A stretch of DNA of 63,593 nt, counting the filler, from Lenisia limosa (Eukaryota; Protista; Breviatea): NCBI GenBank assembly GCA_001655205.1. It is 13 parts of 13 records of this genome, joined end to end, with 100 filler letters (N's around TTAATTAATTAA, not from the genome) between each part and the next. Parts side by side here need not be neighbours in the genome. Positions count along the whole stretch, not along the records: positions 2,472 to 8,663 come from LPNZ01002182.1; positions 8,764 to 11,961 come from LPNZ01010240.1; positions 12,062 to 14,427 come from LPNZ01000676.1; positions 14,528 to 17,347 come from LPNZ01004704.1; positions 17,448 to 30,197 come from LPNZ01010343.1; positions 30,298 to 37,649 come from LPNZ01007998.1; positions 37,750 to 43,305 come from LPNZ01006073.1; positions 43,406 to 45,441 come from LPNZ01001532.1; 5 more parts are not named here. One strand, written 5' to 3'. Below, piece by piece: positions 2,472 through 59,434 of this stretch. A model generated the notes under the pieces. The model searched no databases. It had not been told where the DNA came from and saw only the letters and a program-made list of their open reading frames with translations. Each line of letters begins with the position of its first letter. The first letter of the stretch is position 1. The translations under genes and the position numbers were made by a program.

Positions 2472-2995
2472 TCCGTCCCGGGCTCTGATCATGCTGATCT
2501 CTGTCTTCCTCTTCATGATGCTGGTGTTCTGCCTGGTCAGAGTCTTCGAACGCGTGCGTAACTCTGTGGGGGGGGGGGTAAAACGAAGGAAATATCGATG
2601 AATATTTGTGTAAATGTACTAATCAGGAACCAAATAATCTGAAACTCCAAACAAACCAACGCTAAAACTAGACAAAAGCCAGATGACAAAAGCACAAAAA
2701 CAAATCTGAGGGGGGGGGGTGTTATGTGTTAGGGCTTCCCTACGGTCCGAAAAAGACCAAATATCGATATTTATCGAGAAATTCAGGCTTTTTTGGGACC
2801 GTAGGGAAGCCCTTGGAATGTTATTTTTGTGTTTATTATATATTCCCATATTTTACTCATCTAGCGATGCAAGAAGATTGATCAGTCCCTGGTAGAGATT
2901 GGGGAAATAAGGTAGAGGATTGTTTCTGGCCGAACCGAAGGGAATGGCCTTGCTTTTTTTTTTTTTTACAGTCAATTCTCCTGTGAGTTTGGCTT
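2472..2995 (-). CDS. Hypothetical protein exons (strand ambiguous)
   Basis: Minus reading DKAKLTGELT|GLINLLASLDE|VTHAFEDSDQAEHQHHEEED with an acceptor at 2565-2564; a plus-strand TM-like reading also exists. Confidence 0.25.
2566..2655 (-). repeat. Family D1 intron-terminal element
   Basis: Minus strand TTTGGAGTTTCAGATTATT...TTTCCTTCGTTTTACCCCCCCCCCACAG; homologous to 32740-32830. Confidence 0.75.
2732..2811. mobile_element. MITE family A, subfamily A2
   Basis: TIR GGGCTTCCCTACGGTCC...GGACCGTAGGGAAGCCC. Confidence 0.8.
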
Positions 2996-3659
2996 TGTCT
3001 ACGTGATGGTAGTGTTTAATATAGTGTTTCTTAGTTTTGACAATGGGTGTGTTGTGAGGCTTGTTCATGGATTTGTTTGTATTTCAGCACTTTAACATCT
3101 ATCACAAGTTGGGTACATATTTAGCCAATAATTCTGATCTGATTATCGAGTGGATACGGAGGAGTATTGTTGATTGACGAATAATTTGATGACCGAATAT
3201 TGAAAACACGTAATAGTGTAAATATATGTCTCGAGAGCAAGTGTTTTGCTTCTTAAAATTTGTCCCATGCATAGCGTATCGTAGTTGATATTGAAGGTAT
3301 TGGCAATAACTACAAATTGAAAATCAGTTCACCAGCCCACATAATATTACTTATATATCATATAGTATGTTATGAATTCTCTTTATCCGAAAATTGTATC
3401 TTTTGTCCAAAAATGAAACTCTACCAGTTCACCTAATCTAGTGATAAATATATTTGAAACAAAAGAAAAACGAAAAATATAACTTGGAAACAATTACCAT
3501 ATCCTACCTTACATATTGAGCGTCATGATTTTAGTCAAATCTGTACATGTCATAGCTACCCGCTCCTTCCTGAATTGTCATCAAGTTTTTTTTTTTGGGC
3601 AAGAGAAATAATTTCTAGATATTAAATTAATAGAGCTTCACTGACGGTTAATACACATA

Positions 3660-5717
3660 TTATCTTCCCACTCGGTATTGGACGACTTTTGTTACGGTTC
3701 CACCAGTGGCAGCGACAACAGCAACGGGAAGAAAGTGGTCATCTTGAGGATGCGCCGCTCGACCGTGGGGACTGACAATTAAGTCCTGGGGGGGGGGGGT
3801 GATGGAAGCAAAACGCCCAAAATCAAATCGGTTTGCTTAACATTCTGGAACGGTGTGAAACATCAGTATATTGAGGTTCAAAAGGGATGATAATGATGGT
3901 AATGTCAGCATGCCTACTTGGAGAGCTTTCTTTCTATCCGAGCCAGAAAGGGCAACGGCAGAATCAAAAGCCTTCTCAAAGGGAGCCATATAGGGAACAT
4001 CTCTTTCCTAAAATGGATTAAAATTGTGGAATGTCATTAATATCCCACAATAAAGACATGTAGTAGTAACATACATGTACATGAAGGACCAATTCAAATA
4101 CAATCTCACATACACTGAAGATATCACTGAGGTTGTGAGTGGCCATTCCAGAGCCAATAATAAGGATGTTCTGTTCTCGAAGGCACCGAAGGGCACTACC
4201 AAGTTCCCAGGCTTCATCCACTCCACCGCTCCTGAGCATGCTGACTGACACGACAGGGATGTCCTGATTTATTAATTCAAATACTAAGCTGTAAAATGAG
4301 AGCTCTGGTCAAAATTTCCTAGAAACAGCACCAAACATCGTCAAACAACAGTTAAAAGTGTCTAAGAGACATTTAATTTAGCATTGTTGATACAAAGGCA
4401 AACAAGAGAGGAATAATGTCAAAAACAACCAAAATTGACCAAATACAATTCGACATCATTCCTACCATTGAAGGGTTGGCAACTTTCAGAGGCATCCAAA
4501 TTCCATGGTCTCTTCCCCCATCGTAAGAATCAGCATTCAATCCTTGGGTGGTAAATGATGTTACAAAAGACATTTAGTCTATTAATTCATATATATACAG
4601 TATGTATAGTATATATAAATGATGTTAGGTAGTATAGTTTCAGTCAGCCTACCATTGGTTTTAAGTAAGGAAATAATATCATGTCCAAGGCTTGGGTTAC
4701 CTGGAAGTTAGTGAGAGTAGAAAAGCTTTGCTTATATTCAGTATCTGTAATTCATTAATATAATATGTGAATGGCTTTTATGAATCCCAAATATATTTAC
4801 ATAGGGTATAAAAGGGCTAAAGAGTTCACCAACGTACCCGGTGAAGTGAACTGCATTTGGTACAGCTCAGACGGGAACCCGCCAAAGTCATAGATCGTGG
4901 AAGGAGCATCACTTGTTGACACCTAATGAGGGTGATGGAAGACAACTGAAGATATTTTAAAAATAAGAGCATATATTTGATCAAATAATGTCCTTGAAAA
5001 ATAAATACACGTTATCGACAGAGAATGTCTGTGAAATGTTAGGAAATATTAAATTCATCAAGTTAGGACTATATAGTGTGCACAGAGCTGTAAGACAAAT
5101 GACTGCGTCATGGTGTGGACAGCTTCGGTCAGATACATCTTTATTGTTATTTCTCATTGCTATGTAGTATATTGGTCTTGCAATATCCCAAGTAGGCTGT
5201 GTTACTAATCATACCTTATACGATCTTCCAAGGAAGTGCCCAGAAACAATAACAATGGCCTATAGATGGTGAGAAGGCAGAAGTAATATTGGAATGAAAA
5301 AATAATAATGGAGTGTTTGATCAAAGACTTCCTCCTACAGCCTTGACATTTACCCACTTACCGAAGGTACACGGGGGAGGGTTGATATCATCTTCTTAAA
5401 GTACCTAATTGACAATGAGAAACACCAAATTGTGAGAAATGAGAACATTGAGAATTCGATCAATATTTTTGGGATTTGATGACATGTAAATGCCAAGCCT
5501 CTTGTATTAGCATCAATTCTACGCTTTAATTTTGTTAATAAATACAGTAAACAATCTGGGGGGATTCCTGGGCAAAGTAAAACAGGACATTATTACGACA
5601 TCATATGTTATCTGAAATGATATAACTCAAAACTCCCGCCAACTTAGTTGCCGGGTGTGCAGACTGAAGGGCTGTCATAGGGCTTCCATGTGATAAAAAA
5701 ATAGCCGGCTGTGACAT
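3660..5717 (-). CDS. DODA: Extradiol ring-cleavage dioxygenase, LigB/4,5-DOPA dioxygenase family, complete and multi-exon
   Basis: Spliced motifs MSQPAIFLSHGSPM, AIVIVSGHF, PSTIYDFGGFPSELY, RDHGIWMPL, LGSALRCLREQNILIIGSGMATHNL and AHPQDDHFLPV; ATG at 5717, TAA at 3662-3660. Confidence 0.92.
3788..3845 (-). repeat. Family D2 element forming the acceptor of the last DODA intron
   Basis: Minus strand ...GATTTGATTTTGGGCGTTTTGCTTCCATCACCCCCCCCCCCCAG|GAC. Confidence 0.6.
5065..5165. mobile_element. Family B dispersed element, internally deleted copy
   Basis: GTGTGCACAGAGCTGTAAG tail joined directly to ATGGTGTGGACAGCTTCGGTCAGATACA..TTTCTCATTGCTAT; lies in a DODA intron. Confidence 0.7.
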
Positions 5718-6086
5718 AATTATTGTATTTTGGGGATTTTCGGGAGCTAAATAAAGGGGTGAAGCTAGCGTTATCAAGATCAGTCAGAGTCTTAGGCTAA
5801 GAGTGATCTTGGGAGGGAAGGCAGATTTTGTTGAAGGGTTAGCTATATTCTGTTGTACTCTTAATATTACAATTATTAGGACGTAGGGTGGAGTACTGCT
5901 TAAATAGGAAGGTAAGTGACAAAATGGCGTGTGGAATGTCGAATTACGAAATTAATGCTCCTCACTATTTAAAGTGGTTTTCTCCTGTCAAAATCCCTTA
6001 TTAAGCATATTTTTATGTTAACTAGATAATTTAAAGGGCATATTGGTAGTATTCCAGATTTAATATATTGTCTTCTTAACGAAACC

Positions 6087-7265
6087 ATGGACTCTACTTC
6101 AAGGAGGCGCCCAGTCCCTCGAAAGCCCGAATGGAACATGAACACGCGAACTTCAAGCTATTTTAACCCGCCTCCTCCGCTCCTCTACTCCATTGGCAGC
6201 ATCTACGAAGATCTTCCCCCAAAAGCCGTTGAGAAGCCCAAGGCCACCCACGCTCCAAAACAAGCAAAGAATCGTGTTCCTTCGCGTAAGCCTATCAAAA
6301 AGCTGATTGGTGGTAGTAAGCCAGTCGCAAGGAAGACAGCTCCCTCTAAACCCCTCCCTCCAAAGCCGAAACAACATGTTGAAGAAGCCGTTAAGGAGTC
6401 CCCAACTAAAGAGATTGTTGAACAGGCTGTGGAAGAGGCTAAGCCGATTGGAAGAGAAAATGATCCCCACGAAGAGATGTTGGAAGCCACTCCCGTAAAA
6501 ACCAGTCGTTTTAGCGCAGTTGGCGTGGAGACGTCACCTCTTGTTACATCGTCCGTGGCAACATCGCCGTTTGCTCATGTGGATTCAGGGCTGAATGTCA
6601 GCCAGAACAGCCAACAGAGTCAGCAGTCAGTTCATTGTGAGGGGTGTTATGTTGATAAAGGGTGAGGAGAGTTGCCTTTATTTTAAACAGCTTTCTCATA
6701 ACTCTCAAGGCATTTACCTCATCCCACAGATCATGAAGCTGACGAACCTCTCGAGCCTCTCCAAAAAGATGTCAGCACCCCTGTTTCAGCTCGACCAATC
6801 ATTGGTGGGAGGGTATTCGAAAATCAATTGGGTGGGTTGGGAGGGTTGGATTCATCAATTTTACCTGAAATGAGTGTGGCATGAAATGGATGTATTTAAT
6901 GAGAATTAATCATTTCACGGAACAGAAGGAGATAGTGACTATTCTTTTAACCGTATTTTGAGTTGATAAATAGTACTCAAGCATAACAGCTCGGTTATCA
7001 TTCCACGGGACTAATGCTGACGAGTTTAGAATCTCTCCCTCTTGACTGTGTGAATCCTCTTACAGAAGACATTATTGACTACTTGCTAGGTGGGGAAGGG
7101 GAGGTTGATTAAAGTATAAGACATTATATCGGTATATAATACATGTACGTTTATCACTGTTTTTTTTTTTTTTTCATATGATATGTATATATATGTATAT
7201 CCACAGATTTTGATCAGAGTACTGTGTTCTTCTTTTTTCTTCTCCAAATAACTGGCTGTGTTTGA
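6087..7265 (+). CDS. Hypothetical Pro/Lys/Glu-rich, largely disordered protein
   Basis: 192-codon first exon, followed by in-frame spliced exons (DKG|HLPHPTDHEADEPLE..; GYHSTGLMLTSLESLPLDCVNPLTEDIIDYLL); divergent from DODA; 3' end uncertain. Confidence 0.45.
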
Positions 7266-7399
7266 ACCTACCTGGATAAATGTCATGTGTTTTTTAATGA
7301 TTTAAAGACCCTCAATATCTGAACCTAATATTAGTTTGTATTTGTGTTATGAAATATTTTTGTCTGTTGGCCTGCTTTGTTTGTTGTTTTCAGCCCTTT

Positions 7400-7473
7400 G
7401 TGTTTTTAGCCAACAGGGTTAATTTTGGGCTCTTTGTTTCATACAATTTTAAATTTACCCCCCCCCCCCTTAG
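7400..7473 (+). repeat. Family D2 element at an intron acceptor
   Basis: TTAGCCAACAGGGTTAATTTTGGGCTCTTTGTTTCATA...TTTACCCCCCCCCCCCTTAG|. Confidence 0.7.
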
Positions 7474-8520: not shown

Positions 8521-8543
8521 TGGGGGGGGGGTCAATGTACACA

Positions 8544-8587
8544 CAGTGACCAGGGATTCATTAGGTCAAGACTTATCCCGGTCACTG
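8544..8587. mobile_element. MITE family C, short copy
   Basis: CAGTGACC...GGTCAAGACTTATCCCGGTCACTG. Confidence 0.65.
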
Positions 8588-8663
8588 TATATATTTATAC
8601 ATCTAGTATACTATATACTATATATGATATATATATTATGTATATATACTATATATTTTTATA

Positions 8664-11577: not shown

Positions 11578-11636
11578 CCTCGGCTTAAAGTCTTTTTTTA
11601 CGTGGAATTTTCTAATGTTCCCAGTGTATTCTCTTA

Positions 11637-12061: not shown

Positions 12062-12159
12062 TGCACACGGGTTAACCTTGCCATTCCAAATTATTTATAG
12101 CAATGATATAAAAAACAAGGTTATATCTGGTCGAAGCCTCCTATTTAGGTATCTCCCTA

Positions 12160-12254
12160 GTGCTTCACTTTGGTTCGAGAAAGTCCAGAAAATATCGATA
12201 GTTTTCGAGGTTTTATCGAAAAATTCAGTCTTTTTTCGAACCGAAGTGAAGCCC
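12160..12254. mobile_element. MITE family A
   Basis: TA-GTGCTTCACTTTGGTTCG...CGAACCGAAGTGAAGCCC-TA. Confidence 0.85.
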
Positions 12255-12274
12255 TATACCTCCCTCCCCCACCC

Positions 12275-14568: not shown

Positions 14569-16549
14569 GTGTGTAGGCGTCATCAATGGTGGGGATGAAA
14601 AGTCAGCAACAGGCCGTAATAACATCGGAAGGCTAATCAAAGAGGTGGGTGTACGCTCATCTTGAGAAGTAGAAACCCAAGTTTTTTCTGAGAATAGGTC
14701 GTGGAACGTATTGCTGGTTTATCCAAGGATTCCTTTAATTTGAAATTAATTGTTCAGAACGGAGGCAAGCTCTTCGACCACCCTCAAGGAATTGACATTG
14801 CCATTGCTGCAAAACGAGGTTTGTTTTGCCTCTTTCCCTGCATGGGGATGATAGGCTAGCATCAAATGCGAATTTCAATTAAATTACTATTTGCTTGACT
14901 GTCTTTTCCAGACCCTCGTGCAGTCAACTTTTCCAAGCAGGGAAACGGAAGAGATGTTCACCTCCCTCGCTTTATCCTAGAGTTTATTGAGAAGAGGACG
15001 AGACCAAGTCCAAGCAGAAAGGTTGGGGCGAGCAATAGAAAGTGTTAGTTGTTCACTTCCTTGGGGTCTTCAATCATCATGAGTTTGATACTTTCTAAAA
15101 TGAATATTATTCTGACTATCATGGGGTTTGAGGTGTATTTTATTCTTTAGTATTTGCTCTTGGTTTCTCCTGAAACACGCAAGCAACTTGCTCTGACTGA
15201 GGATGAATACGGTGACAGTTATACAGTCCCCACAACTCTTTTGGACTTCACTCTGGTGGGTATTGGTGATCAAAATACATTTCAATACTATTTTCAGTTT
15301 CATCTGGAGTTTTCTCCTCTTAAAAACGTGTTTGCTTTTTTGTGGCTCTTTTCTCTTCGTTAACATATTTGTTTTTTTTTGTAGAATAGTGTTCATATTT
15401 GGCTACATATTTGATTCTCTNNNNNNNNNNNNNNNNNNNNNNNNNNNNNNNNNNNNNNNNNNNNNNNNNNNNNNNNNNNNNNNNNNNNNNNNNNNNNNNN
15501 NNNNNNNNNNNNNNNNNNAATGAATTGAGAGAAATTGTGAGTAGGGAATACTTGTCCGATATTTGTTTTAAGTAATCCTCTCTTTTTTTGGATTTTTTAG
15601 ACTCATGTGACCGTATATAACGGCACTTCGTGCACTATTTGCATACAGACATAACAAAGGGTGTTTTTTTTTTGTTATTACTCTGAAACCAATCTGCAAT
15701 TAACGGCTGTTTTTATGTTTCCAGGGACGAGATTTCATTGCTGAAGAAGTCAGCTCCCAATTTGACCCTAAACCATTTGATAACACCATCGTGTTCTTTG
15801 AGCCCAAAGATAACGGGTGAGTGTGGGAGCAATATTGTGGGAGAGACGGAGGTATATAAAAGACGGAGCTTTATGAAACAGTTGATTGTTATCAATGAAT
15901 GCCGGTCTTCTGGGCTGGACCTTTGGTATATCACATATATACAAACGCATTTCAAACCTCGGAATTTGGTTTCGGAATATGATATGATTGTGTTCATCTT
16001 TTTCTCCACCCTTTTCACTTCTTCGTAGCCAAGTGGGAGAAAATCTCAAATTCGCTGCTGCGGGTAGGCATTTCAGTGGTGTATTAGTTATTATTAATTC
16101 TGACAACTTTAAACCTCGTGTTCTTTGTGTGTTCTTTGTACAACAACATTGTTGATCTCCTCGAGAGTTGACTAATATAGTCGTGTCCGCATTGGGGGGC
16201 AGAGTCACGACCAAAAACGAGCCATTCGTTACGCATGCTATTGTTGAAGACTTCGAACATGAGGAAGCCCAACAGATCTATGAACTCTTCAAATCGTATG
16301 GGAACAAAATGCAATCAGGGAGGCGTTCTATGTTAACTGATCTCAGGGCAAGAATGTTTAAGGGTGTTTACAGCAGCGAAGAANNNNNNNNNNNNNNNNN
16401 NNNNNNNNNNNNNNNNNNNNNNNNNNNNNNNNNNNNNNNNNNNNNNNNNNNNNNNNCGCTACCATGGTATAAAAATATATTTTGGGCTCTGACCCCCAGG
16501 GGCGGAGGCAGCGTTTGAGAATGAAGATGCACTGATCCCCAATGTTTAA
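14569..16549 (+). CDS. LIG4: DNA ligase IV, C-terminal tandem BRCT region (5' partial)
   Basis: BRCT1 (VINGG..IGRLIKE|NGGK), inter-BRCT EDEYGDSYT motif typical of the XRCC4-binding linker, FDNTIVFFE, and BRCT2 (VSALGGRVT..FVTHAIV); stop position tentative. Confidence 0.85.
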
Positions 16550-16684
16550 GATTTAACATGGTAGCTTTATTTAAATGTTTCTTATTTGCAAATATATTCT
16601 CCTGTTTCCTGTTGCAATCCCAATGGAAACAACAAAAGAAATAGTATCAATAACACACAGAAATCAGACCATTCACACAGGTGG

Positions 16685-17267
16685 TTATGCCCAAGGAGAG
16701 TTCGATTGAACAACATCGGTCGTATTGTCGTATACCTGAAGGATAAAAATACAGACGCTGATAGAGTAAAAAGCTCAAAAATCAAGTCAATCAGATAAAT
16801 ATACTATACAGACACTGTCAGCGAACCTTCCACCCCTTGGCAGCGAGATCAACCATTTCGTCCTTGTTGTTTTGACTCAAAGATGACAAAAGAGAGCGTG
16901 TCAATGGTCTGGGGGGGTGGGGGGGAGNNNNNNNNNNNNNNNNNNNNNNNNNNNNNNNNNNNNNNNNNNNNNNNNNNNNNNNNNNNNNNNNNNNNNNNNN
17001 NNNNNNNNNNNNNNNNNNNNNNNNNNNNNNNNNNNNNNNNNNNNNNNNNNNNNNNNNNNNNNNNNNNNNNNNNNNNNNNNNNNNNNNNNNNNNNNNNNNN
17101 NNTGTTTGTTATTGCTTGTTTTGTTTTTTTGGAGTTTCAAATTATTCGGTGCCAATATTCTTCATCAAAATTTCCTTCGTTTTACTCCCCCCTCTCACAG
17201 AGTCAGCTGACTTCGAGCTGCTTGGATGACTTGATCCTTTGTGGCTGAACGGAGAATTGACCTTCTC
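16685..17267 (-). CDS. Hypothetical protein 3' end, convergent with LIG4
   Basis: Three exons splice in frame: GRRSILRSATKDQVIQAARSQLT|LPLTRSLLSSLSQNNKDEMVDLAAKGWK|VYDNTTDVVQSNSPWA*. Confidence 0.5.
17120..17200 (+). repeat. Family D1 element in reverse orientation at an intron donor
   Basis: TTTGGAGTTTCAAATTATTCGG...TTTCCTTCGTTTTACTCCCCCCTCTCACAG; on the minus strand this reads CT|GTGAGAGGGGGGAGTAAAACG. Confidence 0.7.
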
Positions 17268-17347
17268 CTGTATTGGTGATAATCTGTTGTGGTGTGTTTA
17301 GCTGTGAAACATGTAAGAGAACCGGTTAATGCATATCATTGTTAAAT

Positions 17348-17447
17348 NNNNNNNNNNNNNNNNNNNNNNNNNNNNNNNNNNNNNNNNNNNNTTAATTAAT
17401 TAANNNNNNNNNNNNNNNNNNNNNNNNNNNNNNNNNNNNNNNNNNNN
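17348..17447. other. Artificial scaffold spacer
   Basis: 44N-TTAATTAATTAA-44N. Confidence 0.97.
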
Positions 17448-31239: not shown

Positions 31240-34200
31240 AATGACCCGGTTGTTCGCCGATGTCGTCGCAATCCACGCGGCGGCGTTTGACCATGAGCTC
31301 GTGGCGATTTCCTCTATTGACATCCACGCTCTGTGCGACATGGAGCACCCTATTCCAGCGTCTTTTAGAATGAATAATATATTGAAGGACATGATAAAAG
31401 TAGTAAACTCATCTACTTTTCACCCTTGATATTTGGCTTCAGGTCCTGACGCCGTCAAAGCTGCTAAAGACCGTGGTATGGTGGTCCTTGAAATAAAATA
31501 AAAGTGGATACTGTACCACCTAGTTGAGATGAAAGTAACTGAGGATTTCTAAACTACAAATAGACAAAAGAGCATTTTGAAGCACTCCTTCCGTCGTCAA
31601 CAAATTTAAGCGAAGCTTTGACTCTTATTGGACTCCCTCCGGTTCACAGACCAAAAGAGCATTGACTAATCAATCACCAATTCCTCCACTATTCCTTCAT
31701 TGTTTCTACGAATAGAAAATTCCCGAGTCCTGGTTTAGGGGTCTCGGATGATGTCACTACCACTTTTCAATGCTGTTTTTAACAAACCGCAAAAGGACAA
31801 AAACACATTTAAATAAGGAGACTGGGAAAAGAGACATATTGTAAAAGAAGGGGGGGGGGGGNNNNNNNNNNNNNNNNNNNNNNNNNNNNNNNNNNNNNNN
31901 NNNNNNNNNNNNNNNNNNNNNNNNNNNNNNNNNNNNNNNNNNNNNNTTTTGATACAAACAGAGTGCTTACCTTTAGTTTCGAGTTGTTCCTCTACGTCTC
32001 TTTGGTCAGCCTTAGTTTGCGCCAAGACCTGAAAAAAAAAAGTTAAGGTTTTACTACACATCGTGATACCTTAATTTGGGCATCAAGACGATCCACGTGC
32101 TCGCCAAGGTGGCTTTCGTTCTTAATAACTGACAACTGAGGGGGGGGGGGGGGNNNNNNNNNNNNNNNNNNNNNNNNNNNNNNNNNNNNNNNNNNNNNNN
32201 NNNNNNNNNNNNNNNNNNNNNNNNNNNNNNNNNNNNNNNNNNNNNNNNNNNNNNNNNNNNNNNTAGTCTGGAAAATATACTTATATTGGGGGTTGAAAAA
32301 TAAAAACAGGCCAGTTGCTTCTGCATAATGGGAATGTTGTGATGTCTGGGGAGGGGTAAAAAATGGCCAAATTTTGATGAAAATTATTGGCGTAAAGGTT
32401 CTCGGTTCAAACAAATGGAATGTAAGTAGGGCTTCACTTCGTTTCGAAAAAGTCCGGCAAAAATATCAATAGTTTTCAAGGATATATCGAGAATCCAGTC
32501 TTTTTTTCGAACCGAAGTGAAGCCCTAAATACAAGTAAAGCATTACTACTCACTAGAGCTTCACTTTCGGTTCCAAAACACCTGTGAAACATCGATATTT
32601 ATCGAGAATTCAGTCTTTTTGGAAACGAAAGTGAAGCTGTACTTCCCACCTGTGTCTGGTTTTGGGCGATCCGTTCCTCCGAAGACTGCGAACGAGTGGC
32701 CAGCCCCCCAATTTCCACCTCGCAACGCCTCAGTAGTCTGTGGGGGAGGGAGTAAAACGAAGGAAATTTCGATAAAGAATATCGGCGTAAAGGTACTACT
32801 CACGAACCGAATAATCTGAAACTCCAAACAGGTTAAGTGGAAAACTTAGAGGGGGGGGGGTCAAGAAAAGATAAAAAAAATGGGGGAAACAAATACACAT
32901 CTCTGGTAGCATTTGGGTAACACACAAGGGTTAAATAAAAACCAAAAAAACAAAAAAGAGACTCAAACAACGCCCAGACCATTTGCTTCTTAAAAATGGA
33001 AAAATCATGAAACAAGCCCCCCCCCCCACTTTTCAACATCTTCTATCCTCTGCACATCGGCGCATTTTTGAATTCTGACAGACAAGTCGTGGACGGATGC
33101 GTCGTGGGCGGCTCGGCTGACAACCTCGGAGGGATCCATGATCGATTCCGGGCCCATCTGAGAGAGTACCCGGGTTTCTGGGAGGGGGGGTGAACCGAAG
33201 GAAATTTAGATGAAAGGGTACTAATCCAGAGTTAAATGGAAGCGATGAAAAACTCTCTGCTGGCTCGGTAGGAGAGTAAAATTGGATAATTTATGAAACA
33301 AACAAAGCCCAAATCAACTCTATTGACTGACAACACACACGGGTAATGATTACTGTTTTACTGGACATCGGACATGGACCAAGAGAAGCCCTAGTAATGA
33401 TGATTATATTAAGAGAAATTGTATTGTTGTTAATCGTTGATTATCCAGAATTCCGTCTTCCCTGGGAATAACACCCCTCTCTGAAAACACCCCCCCCCCC
33501 NNNNNNNNNNNNNNNNNNNNNNNNNNNNNNNNNNNNNNNNNNNNNNNNNNNNNNNNNNNNNNNNNNNNNNNNNNNNNNNNNNNNNNTTGCCGAAACCTCT
33601 AATATCTGGAGAGGTAAGATTAGAGTTTCACTTCGGTTTGAAAAAACCCGGTAAAATATCGATAGTTTCCGGGATTTGTCGAGAAATTTTCAGTCTTTTT
33701 TCGAACCGAAGTGAAGCCCTAGGTAAGGTAATGCAATATCCACCCCAAGTATGTATAGCTATATAGCAATGAGAAATAAAAAATAAAGTTGTATCTGGCC
33801 GAAGCCGTCCACACTATCACGCTTATAATAGATATTGGATTATAGTATAATATTAATTCACCCAATCATTTGCCTTACAACTCTGTGCACACAGCTTTAT
33901 GCGTGCCTCCCCAGCGATTCATGAATAAGGACAATAGCCCATGTTGTATAGATATCATATGATAATATGTACATAAACACACAAACCCATATCTATGAAT
34001 CATCTAATATCATATGATTATTATAATTTACCACTTACCTGGGATCTTAGGGAGTTTACAGCGCTTTCGTTCCCAGCCGCCTTGCCTCCCAATGTTACCA
34101 GCATTGGAGCGTGATCCGTGTCAACCTGGGGAGGGGGGGTAAATTGGAAATTTATGAAACATAAAAAGCCCAAAATCAACTTTGTTGGCTGACAACACAC

Positions 34201-37200
34201 GGTGGGGGAGTTGGAAAATTGGTGCATATCTAGCCGAAGATGTATATATATGTATGTTTATGACCATACTATAGTGCAGAACTGAATACTATACCAACCT
34301 TTCTTGCCAGTTTGACAAGTCCAGTGTGAATAGAGGCGGNNNNNNNNNNNNNNNNNNNNNNNNNNNNNNNNNNNNNNNNNNNNNNNNNNNNNNNNNNNNN
34401 NNNNNNNNNNNNNNNNNNNNNNNNNNNNNNNNNNNNNNNNNNNNNNNNNNNNNNNNNNNNNNNNNNNNNNNNNNNNNNNNNNNNNNNNNNNNNNNNNNNN
34501 NNNNNCAACACGGGAAAAAGAAGAAAATTTCGAGGAAGAATATTGGAGGATGTTGGAGTAAAATTAGAACAAGCCCAAATCAAGTGTTGGCTGACAAAAC
34601 ACTAGGGTTGATACCGATACCAACAAAACAAACGAAGGGCTTCACTTCGGTTCGAAAAAAGAAAGAATCCACGAAAACTATCGATATTTTACCGGCATTT
34701 TTGAACCGAAGTCAAGCCCTACACCGACCCTCACTCCCCTCTTTAACCATTAAATCAATACCCACCACCCCCCAAACTTAAATGAGATATTGGACTCCCG
34801 TGCCGCCTGGTACCCGTTAACCAGGGTGTCGATGTCTTTCTGGGGGGGGGGTGAGCAAGGGATATGTTGATGAATATTGGCGTTGAGTGGGGCTTCATTT
34901 CGGTTCGAAAAAAAGACTGATTTTCTTGATTGATCCTCAAAAACTATCGCTATTACCGGTCACGAACCGAAGAGAAGCCCTTGCGCTGAGGNNNNNNNNN
35001 NNNNNNNNNNNNNNNNNNNNNNNNNNNNNNNNNNNNNNNNNNNNNNNNNNNNNNNNNNNNNNNNNNNNNNNNNATTGACACATTTATGAAACACATTACC
35101 AAAAAAAAAAACAATTGCCCATATTTTCAAAAAGACTTGATCAAAAAAAAAAGACATCTTATATCATAAAAACACGACCATTGAGGGTATCAAAAAAAAG
35201 AAAATTAAGAGACAATAATACAAATAAGAGTAACAATAAATCCTTAAGAACACCCCTGTTTCAATCCATCTTGCAATCATCTTATCATCTCGATCCACTT
35301 TTGTTGATGTTCATATCATCATTCACATTCCTTTCTATTAGAGTACAGTGAGACTCTGTACTACTTCCACCCCCCCCCCCCCNNNNNNNNNNNNNNNNNN
35401 NNNNNNNNNNNNNNNNNNNNNNNNNNNNNNNNNNNNNNNNNNNNNNNNNNNNNNNNNNNNNNNNNNNNNNNNNNNNNNNNNNNNNNNNNNNNNNNNNNNN
35501 NNNNNNNNNNNNNNNNNNTGACAACAGGGGAGGGGGAGTAAAATTGGAAAATTTAAAACACAAAAAAGCCCAAAATCAACTCTGTTGGCTGATAACACAC
35601 GAGGGCGCCCCTCCACCAACATCCTCTATCAACGCCCCCACCTTTGCAACCAAGTCTCGGATGAAATGAAGATGGTCACTGGAAAGTTCAGTTGGTGCGC
35701 CTCCAGCTACTAGGATGAAAAAATAATACAAAAAAAAAAATGGAGAATTGTGGATATTTCGATGAATAATACTGGAGTCAAAAACGTGAGGTTTTATTCA
35801 GTCAAAAACTGTCTTATGTCACACAGGGAGGGATAATCACCCGTCACCTTATCATGTTTTTTATTATAAAATTTAGATTGCGACAACACACACCTTCGCG
35901 CACACATGCTTAAGGTCCACCAAGAAGTGTACGCGTACTATCCCAATTTACCACAGGACATGCCAAAAAGGGGGGCATCTTGTCCCGTCTATAACCGCGC
36001 AAAAAGACGCACAATTGTGCAGGTAAAAAATGAACTATCTAGCTATGTTGTATTTAATTGGTTGAATTTTTTATTATAAAATGTGAATGTGCAATACTCA
36101 TTTAATACGATTCCTGGAACTCCCAATTTGATTGTCGACGTGAGATATATAACGAGACGGTGCTCTTTGTTTGGTGAACATTTTGGTGGGAGAAAATGGG
36201 AAGTTTATGAAACAAAAAACCCAAACTCTGTTGACTAAGAGGGGGTCGGCAGGGTAAAATTGGAAGATTAATGAAACAAGATGGTGGGTGGTATGTTAAC
36301 TTGGAAATTTAGATGGAAAATACTGGAATAAAACAAAAAAAAAACATGAATCCCTCAAACCCTCTCAACCACCTCCCCCTACAAGATTCGGAAGTTGTAA
36401 GAGGTTGTACAATTCGGGCAACTTCATACTCCGCAAACTAAACATCATAAACAAACGGGGGTGATGATTTAAAAGCAGGTTGCGGTTGGAGAACCTGGCT
36501 CGGTCGAAGGACAAAGACTTAGGTTATTTAGATTTAGTCAATTAAGAAATAATTATTGAGATACGAAAACAACAATTATGATTGTCATAATGACAAATTT
36601 TATTGAAATTCTTGTAAAACGTAGAAAAAATATGACCTCAACGAAAGTTGTTTTTTCGGATATCTGCGAATATTCTACTGGTATGCTTCGAACCGAAGTG
36701 AAGCCCTATCAACTCCCCACCTTAGCCTCCAAGTTATCAACAATCGGTGCAATTCGGTCCGATGTCTCTGTGAGTTTGTCAACCTGAATGGTGATTGGTA
36801 TGTGTGTGTGCATATTATATGTGGTACTGACGAAATGGTACTCGTGGGGTTGGGTACTGGTTAATTGATAAGCGTGCATCTAATAATATGCAGATTAGAA
36901 AAACCAAAGGAGGCCTCATCACGCTTCCAGGAGATATTTGAGAATATAGTATAGCAATGAGAAATAAAAAAATATGGTTGTATCTGACCGAAGCCGTCCA
37001 CACCATCATGCTTCCAGGAGATATTGGAGTTTTGCATAAGACCCACCTTTCTATGGTNNNNNNNNNNNNNNNNNNNNNNNNNNNNNNNNNNNNNNNNNNN
37101 NNNNNNNNNNNNNNNNNNNNNNNAGAATTGTATGTAACAAATTCTGGATTCAAACTAATTAAACTCTCCTACGTCACAAAAAATGACAAAAATGATAAAT

Positions 37201-40507: not shown

Positions 40508-42655
40508 ACCCACTGTTGAGATTCAGTGTCGTTTTGAGCAAAGGCGTCGAATCGAATCTGGCCCAAACCGTGTCGAGGGGGAACCAGGCCAAGTAACACG
40601 GACGTTGTGTATACCAGGTCTATTACGGTCAAAAATTGGTGTGACATTGCGATGAGGAGGTATACGAAGGCATATGTACAAAGATGAGAAATAAAAATTG
40701 TTATTATGCTGGCCAAAGCCGTCCACTCCATCACATAGTATAAGAACAAAATTAAAAGAGCAAAAAGAAAAATAAAACACGATTGAGCTCACACATCGAG
40801 AATATGCGCAAATACAAGAATAAAACAAAATGACACGTCCTCATGTAAAAATGTCCGTAATACTTGTTTTAGAAGCAGATGTTTAGCCAAGGGTCATAGT
40901 CAGAATTATACCGTAGAAGAAAAGTCGATTTGCCCCTATCGGCCTAGAACTCACCTTTGAGATGCAATTTAAAGAATAAAACAAAGTCGCACATCCTCAC
41001 CTTTAAGATGCATCTCTAAACGAAAGCCATTCCTAAGTTGTTACTTTCAGAATTCTTATAAATATGAATCATGAAAAAGAATAGCTATTACACAAGAAAA
41101 GCCACAAAGCGATCTAACCCCTCCCATCCCCACTTGATACCCGGGCCGAACATGCCAAAAACGGGGTGACGTGCCCCGTGCGCGCGGCCTCCATGTCCGC
41201 CTAAATTGGCGTGGCCTGGGGGGGAGGGGATAAAATGGAAAATTGATGAAACAAAAAAAAAATCAACTCTGCTGGTATGGCTTATAAGAGATATGATATG
41301 GATTATCAACTCTGCTGGTATGGCTTATAAGAGATGATATTAGATTATCAACTCTGCTGGTATGGCTTATATGATATTGGATTATCAACTCTGCTGGTAT
41401 GGCTTATAAATAAGAGATATGATATTGGATTTTAGAATAATATTATTTTACCAATCATATGCCTTACAACTATGTTTACACAACTTTCTGCGTGCCTCCC
41501 CATATATTATATAGCAAATAAAAAATAAGGATGTATCTGCAAATCGGTCAAGAACACCCACCATGGTCACCAAAAATCACGACCAGTGTATCATTGTGCT
41601 TCGGTATTTTGGCAATTGTTGAGAGAACATCTTCAACTAAACAGTGTTAATATTAGATGGGAAAAGCTCCTTTATTGAACAAGGTGTTCATGTCATTGTA
41701 TCAAACCCAAAACGACATATCTAGTTAAGTCGGTCAAGACTTACCATGGACACTGGATATTGTAATATATGATATTATAAGCTATATAGCTATATGATAT
41801 AATGAGTATATTACTGTATATTTGAACTTCTTACACATAAAACATCAACATCATATATAATAATTGTATGTATTAGTAATATCACATTATGATACTAGTA
41901 TTACAATGTAAAAAGAGCTATACAGAGCACACGGTTTTATATCAAATATGCCATGATATGTCAATATCTATTCATATTCTTCAAAAAAAAAATAGATAAA
42001 AAAAAAAGAAGAATGACTGACCCAATTTATCCGTGTGTAGAAGAGCATCGCTTTATTATCATAATATCATACGCATATAAGCGTATATATAAAATAAAGA
42101 AATAGTATGAGGTACTACATACATTCATACAGTATAAACTACTTTGATACACAATGTATCTTTCCTCAACTTACCCAGTTTATCCGCATTAAAAATTGCA
42201 TCAACCTACCCAGTTTTTCTGTATTTAAAATTATATCAACTTACCCAGTTTATCCGTATGAAGAAGAGCATCGACTGCAGTATCGGAGAAGGTGCCAAAC
42301 TGATGCATGGCATGATCGTTGGCTGACAAGTGCAGGAGAGAAAAGTACGGTAGACTGTTGAAATGTTAAATCTGAAGAGGAAAACGAAATACTTTCTAGG
42401 GATATAAAATAACACAAATGAATAAAGAGAAGTAGAAGTATGGGGGGCTATTGAAAGGTTTAATAGGGTTCAAGAGAGAGAAGTGGGGTAGTAAGGTGCC
42501 TAAATTAGGGTTTCAATTCGGTTCAAAAAACCCCTGTAAAATATCAATAGTTTTCGAAGATTTATCGAGAAATTCGGTTTTTTATCGATAATACCCCCCC
42601 CCCCACATATCGGCAGTCAGATGCTTCTTGACGAAGGTGGTGTGCGCTTCATCAT
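40508..42655 (-). CDS. Alkaline phosphatase superfamily enzyme (type I phosphodiesterase / GPI-EtN-P transferase-like), partial
   Basis: NDHAMHQFGTFSDTAVDALLHTDKL|VEDVLSTIAKIPKHNDTLVVIFGDH|GHANLGGHGG; metal-binding DH.xH and GDHG motifs. Confidence 0.75.
41218..41275 (-). repeat. Family D2 element at an intron acceptor
   Basis: Minus strand AGAGTTGATTTTTTTTTTGTTTCATCAATTTTCCATTTTATCCCCTCCCCCCAG|GCCAC, splitting the GDH-G motif. Confidence 0.75.
41260..41410. repeat. Four-copy tandem repeat of about 40 bp, chimeric D2/B
   Basis: ATCAACTCTGCTGGTATGGCTTAT(AAGAGATATGATATTGGATT) x4. Confidence 0.85.
42166..42256. repeat. Three-copy 35-bp duplication of a splice donor junction
   Basis: TCAAC(T/C)TACCCAGTTT at 42166, 42201 and 42236. 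Confidence 0.85.
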
Positions 42656-43409: not shown

Positions 43410-44248
43410 GCCTGTGGCACTATCAACCTCGTTACCATCCCCTGCGACAGATTTTCCGGACACTCCAAGGTTGGAAGGGGGGGGGGGAGTATTGATGCAT
43501 ACTCTCTGCAAAATGTTATTACAGCCCCATGTATATTATACTTATCATGAGCACTTGTAGCATTATATTAGAACACAGAAAGTGCACAGGGCAGGGTGAA
43601 TAATTAAATTCTTCATATTACTTACCCTTTAAATCGTTTCGTTTTATAAACCCTTCATATTACTTTAATAACAAACCTAGGGCTACGCCTACATCGAGTT
43701 CGCCGAGAAGGAGGCTGTTCAGCATTCCCTCATGCTGACTGAGACTCCTTTCAGAAACAGAAATCTTAAGGTGGGAGGGAGGTGATATATCTCCACTTAC
43801 CCCCTCAATAATTCGTACACATTTTTCTTCAAACTTGTGTTTTGTTAGCCAACACAGTTGATTTTGGGCGTTTTTTGTTTCATAATTTCCCATTTTACTC
43901 CATATATAACCCCCCTCTCCCCCAGGTTGTTGCCAAGAGAACAAATGTGCCTGGTATGACAGCCTCTCGCGGCCGTGGAAGAGGTGTGTTTTTTGAATGA
44001 TGCTTTGAAAGACCATGTGTTTAGCCATGAGTTGATTCTGGCCTTAACCGTGTGTTTCGCAGTTGTTTAGCCAGTGATTCTGGCCTCATAAATTTCCAGT
44101 CAACAGGGTTGATTTTTTTTTCTTTTTTCTTTTCTTTTTTTCTTTCAATTTTACTCTCCCAGGACGTGGAGGATTCAGACGGGGTTCAAGAAGGCCATTC
44201 AGCCCTCGTCGCAGCCGCTTTAGAAACCCCCGTTTTGCCCCTTATTAG
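43410..44248 (+). CDS. PABPN1: Nuclear poly(A)-binding protein, RRM and RG-rich tail (5' partial)
   Basis: ACGTINLVTIPCDRFSGHSK|GYAYIEF..FRNRNLK|VVAKRTNVPGM..RGRGR|GRGGFRR..RFAPY*. Confidence 0.92.
43835..43925 (+). repeat. Family D2 element at a PABPN1 intron acceptor
   Basis: TTAGCCAACACAGTTGATTTTGGGCG...ATTTTACTCC...CCCCCTCTCCCCAG|. Confidence 0.8.
44095..44162 (+). repeat. Family D2 element at the next PABPN1 intron acceptor
   Basis: AGTCAACAGGGTTGATTTTT...TTCAATTTTACTCTCCCAG|. Confidence 0.7.
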
Positions 44249-45436: not shown

Positions 45437-45441
45437 GTGGG

Positions 45442-50305: not shown

Positions 50306-53300
50306 ATGAGCAAGAGGGTAGGCTTGATCGCACCCTGTACTATTGCTGCCTCGGGCAACACAACTACAACGCTTCGATTAGCAGGTGAGTCACATCTATT
50401 GCCAGTTTTCCATAGTCAATTGTTCTTGCACCGCTGTTCATTGTCCATGAAATATATATTACTGCGAACATTTCCTGACTTTGTATAATATGTCTGAACT
50501 TGGCAAAACACTTTCTTTCCAGTTCAATTTAAACTTTTTTTACTTACATATGAATGTGATTTATATAATGTAGTTTAAAAGTAATCTTTTTATATATATA
50601 CAGTGACCGAATATGTCTGAAGCGCTTTTCCTTGGGAAATCAAATGGCAAATCGGAAGACTAATCATTTTATATAATGTGTATTAATCTTTCTCTTCGTA
50701 CATGTCCATATTATCGATACTAATACTCCCACTTTTTTACTTATTAATTCGCAATAAAACAGGGAAACTAAGCATAAAGCGATCAAAGAATCACCTTAAC
50801 AGGGCTCCTCTCTTCCGAAGGCAATCCAACTGAAGTGCTGAACATCTACTCGCTACCCGAGTGTGAGACTGAAGCTGAGGTAGGGTGGGTATAGGAGTTT
50901 AATTATTACTGATAAAGTGAGACTTGGAATAGTCACCAAGTACGGCTGTTGGGTCTGCCTAAAGATGACGTGTCACCAACCAGATCTTGGGTCTAGGGCT
51001 TCACTTCGGTTCGAAAAGACTGACAATATCTCGATATTTATCGAAGATTTATCTAGAAATTCAGTATTTTTTTGAACAGAAGTGAAGCCCTTGTATCATA
51101 ATTAATTTTCCAAAAAAAACCATTATTTATGACTTTTATAAAATTTACATAAACTGATGGGAACTGATTACATTGTAACTGTTTAGTTTACCTGAAATAC
51201 TCATAGCAACTGAATAAATTATGGTTTAGTTTTCCTGTTTACCTTAATGCTAATAGCAACTGGTTATATTGTAACTCTATTTACCTGAAGTAAAAGAGGA
51301 TGGCTGCCTAGTTTATCTGCAATTCTTATAAATGGCTGCCAAGTTTACCTTAAAAACTGACACCACAGGTGACATTGCTGAAATGGATTGAAGAGAAAAA
51401 GATAGACCTTGTTGTCCTTCTCCATGCATACAGAGCTGGCAAGTTCTTTTCAAAGGAGAGGATTCCTAAGGATTCGCCACTTCTCACGACTAAGTACACA
51501 CTGTTCACTTTTTGTGACCTACAAAATTATTTGGGCTGCGTTTTATTCATTTTAGTATTTAATTACCATAGATTTGTTGTTATTCTTGGGGGTACGGATG
51601 CGAACGTCGCACTTTTCGACCCATTGAAGGCCCCTGTAGTTAAGGTAAGAATATGAATGTTGGTTATGTGCCAAGTTATTAATGGCACTGTTATGTTATA
51701 AAAAAAGGCTATGTATTGGTGATGTTATGCGAAATGTGCGATAAGTAACTTCAGCTTTCTTTGCATAATGAGCTTTACATTAATTCCCAAAGCTAGTGCT
51801 CTTCTATTAGAAATCACAAGGTCTGAAATAGTGTGTGTTATAAAAGGACCTCGTGTTATGTTTGCAATATTACCACCAATCGAACTAACATTTCTAAGAG
51901 GCATGGAAATTTTCGAGGTTTTACGATATTTTAGCAAATTGAATCTTGATTTGGATAAATCTCTGCACATTGCCAATAACCCGGCAAACATCCAAAACGG
52001 TGTAGGAGAGTAATTTTGAAACTGAAGGTGTATTTTCATTGGGATCTATTGTTATAAGAAGAGCGCCATTTCAAACCCTTATATTTTTTTTAAAATGTTA
52101 ACTTTATTTCTTGGAAACACTATTCGCACAAAGACCTATTATTTCCCTTACTAACTGAACCTCTCAGGATGTTTGCGAAAGAGCTTCAATGATCATTTCC
52201 TTCACCAAAGCCATGGCAGACAAAATAAAAGTGGGGGCAATGCAAGTTATGTTACTAATGTTTCTTGTTATATTTTCGATCTCAACTTGCACGAAAAAAG
52301 ACCAGGAGTAAGATGAACTGCGTCATTTTTGTTTTTTTTTGTTTTTATTGTTGGAAGTCCTACACCTCAGTAGTATGCCCTTGCAGTGAGAAGTTATGAG
52401 TAGTTTCACCTTTTAGTGGGAAGTTCCCGCTGCGAACATTACCATGATCCCGCAATCCATCCCACCCTACTCTGATTTGAAACCGTAAGCTTCTGATCTT
52501 TCACTTTCCTGTGATATTATATTCTTTCACTGCTCATGAAATCTTTCACTAATCACCCAAGGTGGTTGGGCTTTGTTTGTTTTTGTGCTGTTTTCAATCC
52601 TCATCTCTATGTTCAGCCAGAGTTAATATTTTGGGTGTCGAGGCAATCTAATCAATCTATCCCCCCCTCCCTTACGGAGTGATGGGATGTGGTGCTGNNN
52701 NNNNNNNNNNNNNNNNNNNNNNNNNNNNNNNNNNNNNNNNNNNNNNNNNNNNNNNNNNNNNNNNNNNNNNNNNNNNNNNNNNNNNNNNNNNNNNNNNNNN
52801 NNNNNNNNNNNNNNNNNNNNNNNNNNNNCACAGAGACGACACGAGCCTCCGTAAGCGGTTTGCCCTCTCCCAAGACCGCCTGATATTCTCAATGCCAATC
52901 TCAATCCGGCCCGTAAAAGACCCTCTCCGCCTCCTCCGCGCCTTCAGTCGCATGCACGTCACGTGCCCGCGCGTCTGCCTCGTTATTATGGGCCCCGTGC
53001 TTGATGATGAGATGATGAACGAGCTCGAGAAGGCGACTGGGAATGGTTTGTGGTTATTCAGGTGTTATTTCTAGATTTTATGAGAGAAAGAAATACATTT
53101 CAAAATATAATCTAATGGATAACATTTCCCGCTTTTTGGTCCCACTCACAACGCTGAGCGTCTTCAGCTAACAATATAGGAGACCCCATTTGTGACACTG
53201 ACAACAGCGGAAGCGATATGTTTGGGGGGTGGATTTTGACTTTATCTTCTTTCTAAATAAGGAATAGAAAAATAGTGAGTATCCGCCCACATAATTCTTC

Positions 53301-57643: not shown

Positions 57644-58082
57644 CTGCTCAGGTAAATAGCGATTCCCAACGGTCTGAAAAAGACTGGTAAAATATCGATA
57701 TTATTGAGGATTCTTAGAGAAATTGGTCCTTAGGGAAGCCCAACAGGGGGGTAATTAGAAAAAGGGGCCGGGAACGTATTTGATTACAACTAAGGATGGG
57801 CTGGCAGAAAGAGTGATCCATTTCAAAGACAGAGTTCTTATGGCTCTATTATTCTTTTTGGGGTTTAATCCTTCGCATTAAAACGTAATATTAATAATTG
57901 TTAAAGGTTTGGGGAAAATGGTTCTCATCTTAGCATAAAATTAAGTAGGAACCTCCTCCTTTTTATCCGAACTCACTTTGGTCCGAAAAAAGACGGTTGT
58001 TTTGGACAAATCCTCGATAAACATCGATATTACCGCCCTTCTTCGGACCATAGGGAAGCCCTCAATATGACTGTTACCAAGT

Positions 58083-58182
58083 NNNNNNNNNNNNNNNNNN
58101 NNNNNNNNNNNNNNNNNNNNNNNNNNTTAATTAATTAANNNNNNNNNNNNNNNNNNNNNNNNNNNNNNNNNNNNNNNNNNNN
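58083..58182. other. Artificial scaffold spacer
   Basis: 44N-TTAATTAATTAA-44N. Confidence 0.97.
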
Positions 58183-58202
58183 ATTTACCCCCTTCCTCAC
58201 AG

Positions 58203-59434
58203 TTATTCCCTGTTTCTCTGACCTTGGCTCTATCGCAAATGGAGCGTTCCAATGCCACAATGAAGGGTCTCCAGACAACACCAACCAGACCGTTTTCCAT
58301 GTAAGCTGAGAGGATTTCTTTCTGGTAAAAAAGGCCATTTACCATGTTTTTCTTTTTTTCATTCACTCCCCTCCCTCAATTTGCGACTTCTTTTTTTTTG
58401 TACATAGATTTTCCATCAAACAGACACTCTTATCATCCCCCATTCCATCCTAAACAACCAGCCTTAGAAATGAAAATTGCCTCTTTAACCCCCCCAGGAT
58501 TGGCCTGGGCTTTATTTCGTTGTTATCAACCCTTGTGTGTTGTCAGCTAACAGAGTTGATTTTGGGCTTTTTTTTTTGGTCTCATAAATTTCCTTCGTTT
58601 TACTCCCCAGGTATGCAATCTGGGCTGNNNNNNNNNNNNNNNNNNNNNNNNNNNNNNNNNNNNNNNNNNNNNNNNNNNNNNNNNNNNNNNNNNNNNNNNN
58701 NNNNNNNNNNNNNNNNNNNNNNNNNNNNNNNNNNNNNNNNNNNNNNNNNNNNNNNNNNNNNNNNNNNNNNNNNNNNNNNNNNNNNNNNNNNNNNNNNNNN
58801 NNNNNNNNNNNNNNNNNNNNNNNNNNNNNNNNNNNNNNNNNNNNNNNNNNNNNNNNNNNNNNNNNNNNNCCCTTTACTCCAATATTCTTCGTCGAATTTT
58901 CCTTCGTTTCACTCCCCAGCGTACCCCTGTGACAAGGCCACCCAGCCCTCCGTCACGAATGGAGTACTCTCCTGCAGCATCAACGCTCTCGATTCCCTCA
59001 GAACCACTGATGAATGTTACGCCTCTTGTAATACTGGCTACGTGCCTACAGGTGGGTGGGAGCTATCCTTTCTCCACTATTCTTCACCTAATTTTCTTCG
59101 TTTTGTGTTGCTTTCGATAGAATTGATTCAGGGCTTTTTTTGTTTTCATAAATGGTCCATTCTATCCCCCCCCCCACACCTGGGATGCGGTGCCACAGAA
59201 ACGACTGGCTTGGCNNNNNNNNNNNNNNNNNNNNNNNNNNNNNNNNNNNNNNNNNNNNNNNNNNNNNNNNNNNNNNNNNNNNNNNNNNNNNNNNNNNNNN
59301 NNNNNNNNNNNNNNNNNNNNNNNNNNNNNNNNNNNNNNNNNNNNNNNNNNNNNNNNNNNNNNNNNNNNNNNNNNNNNNNNNNNNNNNNNNNNNNNNNNNN
59401 TACACCTGGAGCACCCCTGGTCCGAATTGCACAC
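58203..59434 (+). CDS. Sushi/CCP-like repeat protein (partial)
   Basis: PC..LGSIANGAFQC, PCDKATQPSVTNGVLSC..CYASCNTGYVPT and YTWSTPGPNCT: the C-x-P..NG..C..C..GY..W..P.P.C pattern. Confidence 0.6.
58540..58610 (+). repeat. Family D2/D1 hybrid at an intron acceptor
   Basis: TGTGTTGTCAGCTAACAGAGTTGATTTTGGGC...TTTCCTTCGTTTTACTCCCCAG|. Confidence 0.8.
58870..58919 (+). repeat. Family D1 element at an intron acceptor
   Basis: CCAATATTCTTCGTCGAATTTTCCTTCGTTTCACTCCCCAG|. Confidence 0.8.

What the first reader, a model, noticed from the sequence alone, without database searches (positions are those of the whole stretch)
2566..58919. A repeat family (D) that forms the 3' splice end of introns in unrelated genes: candidate introner-like or acceptor-donating element
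Seen in sequence: homologous 60-100 nt segments (D1 ...TTTCCTTCGTTTTACTCCCC; D2 ...GCCAACAGAGTTGATTTTGGGC...TTTCCAATTTTAC(T)CCCC) end within a few nt of the acceptor AG, in gene-sense orientation. Acceptor positions are 3787 (DODA), 7473, 32347, 32739, 33179, 34127, 34841, 41217 (phosphatase, splitting the GDH|G motif), 43925 and 44162 (PABPN1), 58610, 58919 and probably 2565. These sites lie on several independent scaffolds. Established: introner elements are transposon-derived introns that share sequence across unrelated genes. Inference: D either created these introns or is a mobile element that inserts at and takes over acceptors. Caveats: a few copies are mid-intron (33260-33345, 36190-36320). 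From memory, the PABPN1 K|V intron position may be shared with animals, which would favour colonisation of an old intron.
Basis: partly seen in the sequence, partly recalled or inferred. Interest (0 to 1): 0.85.

Follow-up and report, generated by a model that had tools for sequence, protein, structure and literature searches.

The report
Repeat homing to intron splice ends
In this intron-rich single-celled eukaryote, a short high-copy repeat sits against runs of C followed by AG, forward at intron ends and backward at intron starts; it likely invades existing introns by homing to that sequence rather than creating new introns.

Summary
The repeat is real. D1 and D2 give 23 profile hits on 6 of 13 scaffolds, and contig depth over D is about 1,000-4,000 times that of unique DNA. 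Most listed acceptors hold. D is not an introner: similarity covers only one intron end (3' ends 18 of 28 pairs, 5' ends 1 of 28). A second, unlisted copy at 17198 appears to do the same. Both donors read CT|GTG, which on the other strand is C-run+AG. So D follows the sequence C-run+AG on either strand, not the direction of the gene. Its end (TTTTAC+C-run) equals the host's own acceptor signal, so insertion is likely tolerated. Best reading: a non-autonomous element that colonises existing intron ends by complementarity-primed copying. No partner enzyme was found, only one clear target duplication, and no genome-wide test was possible. New variant; the bold reading is that excised introns template their own tails.

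The parts
2574..2705 (-). D1 copy (core 2574-2659, left module to 2705), antisense, directly after the donor of plus-strand intron 2566-2864
   Evidence: nhmmer E=2.6e-21; RNA contig covers 2472-2565 and continues with the letters of 2865 onward; DNA depth falls from 12,967 to 78 at 2705/2706
2563..2577 (+). First copy of a 15-base direct repeat that spans the exon-intron junction (working donor)
   Evidence: 14 of 15 bases match 2705-2719; mostly a G-run, so weak alone
2705..2719 (+). Second copy of the direct repeat, GT replaced by GA; likely target-site duplication
3809..3839 (-). Partial D2 before DODA acceptor 3786 (intron 3917-3786)
   Evidence: E=5e-4; open joined frame; DODA exon matches PF02900 proteins
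7391..7460 (+). D2 before acceptor 7473 (intron 7090-7473)
   Evidence: E=3.7e-16; open joined frame
17122..17189 (+).
   Evidence: E=2.8e-14; minus-strand exons join in an open frame ending in a stop, facing the stop of a plus-strand gene; no RNA test
32354..32417 (-). Partial D1 before a C-run+AG at 32346 that may be unused
   Evidence: E=2.1e-9
32748..32835 (-). D1 before acceptor 32738 (intron 33029-32738)
   Evidence: E=4e-24; open joined frame
33186..33344 (-). Tandem D2 (33274-33344) plus D1 (33186-33239) before acceptor 33178
   Evidence: RNA piece 33030-33178
34138..34202 (-). D2 before acceptor 34126, preceded by a further D tail
   Evidence: E=4.2e-20; no RNA cover
34515..34608 (-). 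D2+D1 array running into an N gap
34842..34885 (-). Weak D1 tail before acceptor 34840, next to a family-A hairpin element
   Evidence: seen in alignment; not found by nhmmer
35536..35607 (-). D2 followed by a C-run and the start of another unit, then an N gap
   Evidence: E=1.3e-18
36193..36331 (-). Degenerate D fragments, mid-intron
   Evidence: E=5e-6 and 0.2
41231..41275 (-). Partial D2 before acceptor 41216 (intron 41561-41216, in the G codon of GDHG)
   Evidence: E=2e-4; open joined frame
43830..43900 (+). D2 in PABPN1 intron 43771-43925; the hit ends 25 bases before the end of the AG
   Evidence: E=9.6e-19; exon matches PABP2 structures at E=4e-5; open joined frame
44093..44115 (+). D2 fragment in PABPN1 intron 43984-44162
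   Evidence: E=9e-4
58498..58607 (+). D2 body with D1 tail before acceptor 58610; CCCCAGG on both sides; the upstream AG at 58497 gives a stop if used
   Evidence: E=2.4e-17
58871..58915 (+). D1 before acceptor 58919
   Evidence: E=7.7e-8
59067..59162 (+). D1+D2 array ending at a C-run with no AG close by

Best explanation
D1 and D2 are short, high-copy repeats that lie against C-run+AG sequences at one end of otherwise unrelated introns, and they likely arrive by secondary insertion, with the element's C-rich end predicted to pair with the G-rich strand of the target and prime copying by a reverse transcriptase not identified here. Shown: the family, its abundance, the fixed end at a C-run, one-ended similarity, tandem and chimeric copies, and one RNA-proven antisense copy at a donor. 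Inferred: the target is the DNA sequence C-run+AG on either strand (acceptors, and donors whose exon ends in CT); repeated hits at the same target build arrays; and because D ends in TTTTAC+C-run, like the host's own acceptor region, it replaces the likely branch-point region without breaking splicing.
For: Similarity at 3' ends in 18 of 28 intron pairs, at 5' ends in 1 of 28. C-runs preceded by D are followed by AG in 10 of 12 cases, other C-runs in 17 of 60 (p=0.0006). RNA-proven donor at 2566 with antisense D1. Of 16 hand-listed G-rich donors, the 2 with exon-terminal CT both carry D and 0 of 14 others do (p=0.008; 0.02 if the doubtful CT donor 60293, without D, is added). No antisense copy away from such a site among 23 hits, whereas family B lies mid-intron in both orientations. 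Depth edge is sharp at the C-run, with mixed flanks beyond; left ends vary. One 14-of-15 direct repeat flanks the 2566 copy. Tandem D1-D1 joints exist in DNA contigs. No hairpin or terminal inverted repeat (z -0.8 to +1.1, against -7.4 for family A) and no Pol III boxes. Priming by 3'-end complementarity is known for tailless retropseudogenes (PMC5322556, passages).
Against: No reverse transcriptase or transposase among 42 frames scanned. A clear direct repeat in only 1 of 14 D sites, and it is mostly homopolymer. Depth does not fall steadily away from the C-run (89,000, dip, 121,000, 43,000), so 5' truncation is not shown. The consensus of 50 loose ends beyond the C-run shows no AG (agreement 0.38), so AG adjacency is shown only in this window. 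Only two antisense copies, one without RNA. 11 of 23 hits lie in one gene, so copies are not independent. In 45 contigs D1 continues into A-runs on the G-rich strand, which could mean a poly(A)-tailed element of opposite polarity. Donor lists were made by hand.
Confidence: 0.5

Rival explanations
1. DNA-level templated copying: breaks at G/C homopolymer runs are repaired from another C-run+AG locus, copying 50-200 bases upstream of it; D dominates because it is already common.
For: Explains the fixed end, the strand rule, chimeras (D2 body with D1 tail at 58610), arrays and scarce duplications with no enzyme of its own. Assembly gaps cluster at G/C-runs.
Against: Very many near-identical copies of two families (7,725 contig records at 95% or more on one scaffold, with other repeats included; 1,322 on 254 bases at 85%) suggest active amplification; the 15-base junction duplication at 2566 fits staggered nicks.
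Confidence: 0.25
2. D inserts at random in introns and selection keeps only copies that land at and serve as acceptors.
For: Its end resembles the host acceptor signal; 20 of 22 distinct segments are gene-sense.
Against: Harmless antisense mid-intron copies should then be common; none was seen. The antisense copies sit at CT|GTG donors, where an antisense AG has no role in splicing.
Confidence: 0.1
3. D is a decayed introner that created these introns.
For: D reaches the splice boundary in most copies; it can stand at either end; intron age was not tested.
Against: No shared 5' ends (1 of 28 pairs), no inverted D at the far end, intron lengths 132-384 with unrelated interiors, arrays and internal copies.
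Confidence: 0.08
4. D is a non-autonomous rolling-circle (Helitron-type) or other DNA element with a preference for C-runs.
For: Tandem arrays, one fixed end and few duplications are Helitron-like (recalled; lack of duplications also in PMC12130899, passages).
Against: No terminal hairpin on either strand.
Confidence: 0.07

Closest known systems
Introners (Gozashti et al., PMC9860276 and PMC12130899; passages read)
   Same: Shared sequence at splice boundaries of unrelated genes; one element end resembles a splice site; can face either way.
   Different: Introner similarity must reach both intron ends; D covers one end of otherwise unrelated introns, forms arrays, and is the kind of secondary insertion those surveys filter out.
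Tailless retropseudogenes mobilised by LINE-1 (PMC5322556; passages read)
   Same: No poly(A) tail needed; the target is complementary to the terminal 2-18 bases of the RNA; target duplications.
   Different: Those derive from tRNA, snRNA, 5S and mRNA and use A-rich targets in mammals; D's target is C-rich, coincides with splice ends, and no LINE partner is identified.
Alu and other SINEs that supply 3' splice sites (recalled, no call)
   Same: A repeat supplies pyrimidine tract and acceptor context.
   Different: Alu creates new internal acceptors and exons after broad insertion; D sits at existing constitutive ends and adds no exon.
Sister stwintrons of Xylariales (PMC12403724; passages read)
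   Same: Intron sequence proposed to spread through excised intron RNA; complementary intron termini.
   Different: Whole introns at new positions with inverted repeats; D is a one-ended piece inside existing introns.

Membership tests
Introner | Similarity reaches near both splice boundaries | tested here: not met
   5' ends 1 of 28 pairs, 3' ends 18 of 28 pairs at p<=0.01 among 8 introns with both ends known
Introner | Similarity stops at the exon boundary | tested here: met
   Depth falls from 13,319 (2562-2570) to 22 (2553-2561)
Introner | Intron position absent in relatives | not testable with these tools
   Exons too short for the locus and homologue searches; no paper found; D motifs absent from metagenome and viral contigs
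MITE / TIR DNA transposon | Terminal inverted repeats, hairpin | tested here: not met
   Folding z -0.8 to +1.1 for four D copies, -7.4 for family A; no inverted D partner
SINE (Pol III) | A and B boxes, tRNA/5S/7SL head | tested here: not met
   No box match with recalled consensus patterns; no Rfam match in the window; full left end of D not seen
LINE-mobilised retrocopy (tailless type) | 3' end complementary to target | tested here: met
   D ends in a C-run at C-run+AG sites on either strand
LINE-mobilised retrocopy (tailless type) | Target-site duplication of about 8-30 bases | tested here: inconclusive
   14 of 15 bases at 1 of 14 sites; CCCCAGG at 58497/58610; C-only duplications cannot be told
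LINE-mobilised retrocopy (tailless type) | Autonomous partner with reverse transcriptase | not testable with these tools
   No genome held; none among 42 frames of the window
Helitron | Subterminal hairpin and conserved termini | tested here: not met
   far end of D not available

The most novel reading that the evidence does not exclude
Excised introns are themselves the template: splicing frees an RNA whose 3' end is D+C-run+AG, that end pairs with the G-rich strand of any other acceptor (or CT|GTG donor), and a reverse transcriptase writes the tail in. D would be a self-propagating intron tail, a mobile element whose RNA end is made by the spliceosome and whose target is the splice signal.
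Probability: 0.2. Interest if true: 0.85.

Novelty: new variant of a known kind. Interest (0 to 1): 0.62.

Why it matters
If it holds genome-wide, a mobile repeat uses the host's splice signal as its landing site and rewrites the branch-point region of many existing introns. Introner surveys discard one-ended similarity by design (PMC9860276), so such elements would be overlooked. It also offers a system in which copying of spliceosomal intron RNA back into DNA, long proposed and rarely shown, can be tested on many events. For annotation, the near-palindromic ends (CCCCCACAG against CTGTGGGGG) make donors look like acceptors of the other strand, as happened at 2565.

Tried and rejected
No whole genome is held, so the genome-wide test was not run. 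D motifs found nothing in metagenome or viral contigs. No Rfam family in the window. Pfam on 42 frames gave only a receiver domain and a weak RRM, no mobile-element protein. Lineage was not determined: DODA gave two hits at 52-55% without taxon, another exon none, the PABPN1 exon two weak multi-domain hits. Exons 34125-34039 and after 34840 and 32346 had no RNA cover, which proves nothing. Earlier notes of this scan on this genome or sequence: none. Rejected: 2565 as acceptor (RNA); D as TIR element; whole-intron homology; 58497 as the used acceptor (stop in the frame that is open at 58610). Ten literature searches showed no description of a repeat homing to C-run+AG splice ends; the library is incomplete and the species tables in the supplements of the introner surveys were not read.
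Full report
Setting. The window is 13 scaffolds of 1.3-12.8 kb joined by N spacers. It comes from an intron-rich eukaryote whose lineage I could not fix. No whole genome is held. Two runs hold the sequence: X1, kind not on record, with 92% of the words of a mostly intronic stretch and read here as genomic DNA (it may be the window's own source), and X2, a poly(A) RNA library from the same study. Both are contigs, one study only.

The repeat is real. Profiles built from six window copies each gave 11 D1 and 12 D2 hits at E up to 1 (5 of the 23 have E above 0.01; two overlap, so 22 segments), and none in the reversed window. A 22-base motif of each family matched 6 places at up to 3 mismatches against 0 in 100 shuffles. 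Hits lie on 6 of 13 scaffolds, 11 of them in one gene; the two longest scaffolds have none. In X1, unique pieces have depth 24-32, bins holding D reach 16,000-30,000 at 95% likeness, and D1 reaches 80,000-121,000 at 85%, with 1,322 contig records on 254 bases. Summed contig depth is not a copy number, but it points to a very abundant family.

The listed acceptors. An RNA contig piece runs 33030-33178 and stops, supporting acceptor 33178 and donor 33029 on the minus strand. Joined frames are open at 3786, 7473, 32738, 41216, 43925, 44162 and 58610. The PABPN1 exon matches PABP2 structures (E=4e-5) and a DODA exon matches PF02900 proteins. 34126 and 58919 have open downstream frames. 34840 carries only a weak tail. 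32346 is doubtful: no GT donor gives an in-frame exon before the gap, skipping it is in frame, the three letters by which an RNA contig overruns the next acceptor fit the skip, and the candidate exon has GC 0.35 against 0.45-0.59; an exon ending inside the N gap is not excluded.

The correction. At 2565 an RNA contig of depth 19 covers 2472-2565 and continues with the letters found at 2865. The intron is 2566-2864 on the plus strand, and D1 lies antisense directly behind its donor. Both donors read CT|GTG, which is C-run+AC+AG on the other strand. Among 16 hand-listed G-rich donors the 2 with exon-terminal CT carry D and 0 of 14 others do (p=0.008); I dropped one mis-placed row and two donors that failed the G filter, and adding the doubtful CT donor at 60293, which lacks D, gives p=0.02. 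Of 81 C-runs, 9 beside N were dropped; those preceded by D are followed by AG in 10 of 12 cases (the two donors and 32346 included), others in 17 of 60 (p=0.0006). Family B, as a control, lies mid-intron on both strands relative to its genes (gene strands assigned by hand).

Not an introner. The surveys require similarity near both boundaries and filter out secondary insertions (PMC9860276, PMC12130899; passages read). Among 8 acceptor-type D introns with both ends known, 70-base windows matched in 18 of 28 pairs at the 3' end and 1 of 28 at the 5' end. Lengths are 132-384 bases with unrelated interiors. No inverted D was found at the far end. The terminal C-run and AG also occur at acceptors without D, and in PABPN1 intron 43771-43925 D2 stops short of the host's own C-run. 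Whether these intron positions are old was not tested.

Anatomy. The end at the C-run is sharp: depth falls from 13,319 to 22 within ten bases and the flanks beyond are mixed, agreement 0.38, with no AG visible in their consensus. The other end varies; loose ends show that other copies run further than any in the window, and D1 and D2 share a left-hand motif. Arrays and chimeras are common: D2+D1 at 33344-33186 and 34608-34515, D1+D2 at 59067-59162, a D2 body with D1 tail at 58610, and D1-D1 joints in three contigs. The 2566 copy is flanked by a 15-base direct repeat spanning the junction, the second copy having GA for GT; no other of 14 sites has a comparable repeat. D has no hairpin, no inverted ends and no Pol III boxes, and no Rfam match.

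Mechanism. The anatomy fits an element whose C-rich end pairs with the G-rich strand of a C-run+AG target and is copied in upstream of it. Complementarity-primed retroposition without a poly(A) tail is documented for tailless retropseudogenes (PMC5322556, passages read); applying it here is inference, and no reverse transcriptase was found in 42 frames. Repair of homopolymer breaks from another acceptor would leave much the same picture and is the main rival. Random insertion plus selection does not explain the absence of antisense mid-intron copies or the CT|GTG donors. Against my reading: one duplication only, no steady fall of depth, two antisense cases, clustered copies, and A-runs on the G-rich strand in 45 contigs that could mark opposite polarity. 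The boldest reading is that excised introns, which end in exactly D+C-run+AG, are the template; RNA-borne intron spread has been proposed for stwintrons (PMC12403724, passages read) but nothing here shows it.

Literature. Ten searches listed no report of such an element. I read passages of PMC9860276, PMC12130899, PMC12403724 and PMC5322556 and the first fifth of PMC11282704; the rest were seen as listings. Supplements, including the species tables of the introner surveys, were not read and may bear on novelty. Alu exonisation and Helitron traits are recalled.

Verdict. Observation partly confirmed; introner reading not supported; acceptor colonisation supported and refined to a strand-independent C-run+AG target. 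New variant of a known kind, interest 0.62.

Noticed in passing
window 12157-12257 and 21 other loci: Family A: about 100-base hairpin element with TAGGG ends, folding z -7.4, MITE-like; several copies lie beside D or splice ends.
   Followed up: partly
window 33765-33914 and about 15 other loci: Family B: non-palindromic intronic repeat of 150 bases or more, mid-intron, both orientations; used as a control.
   Followed up: partly
whole window: Many donors are followed by G-runs and many acceptors preceded by C-runs, so intron ends can pair; assembly gaps often start at these runs.
   Followed up: partly
window 43771-43925: PABPN1 intron has complementary ends over 16 bases (p=0.005 against shuffles); D2 sits between them, as if inserted into a short hairpin intron.
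   Followed up: no
window 17448-30197: The longest scaffold has many short introns, few C-runs and no D copy; by eye it encodes a multi-membrane protein with a cyclase-like end.
   Followed up: no
window 52562-52671: Diverged D2-like copy seen in the alignment and sharing a 14-base motif with the left module of D1; not found by nhmmer.
   Followed up: partly
run X2, laid on 32748-32830 and 2566-2704: The poly(A) library holds D-containing contigs from other loci; retained introns, untranslated regions or DNA cannot be told apart.
   Followed up: no
window 59435 and 60293: Two GTAG+G-run sites share a short downstream motif; possibly a third small family at donors.
   Followed up: no
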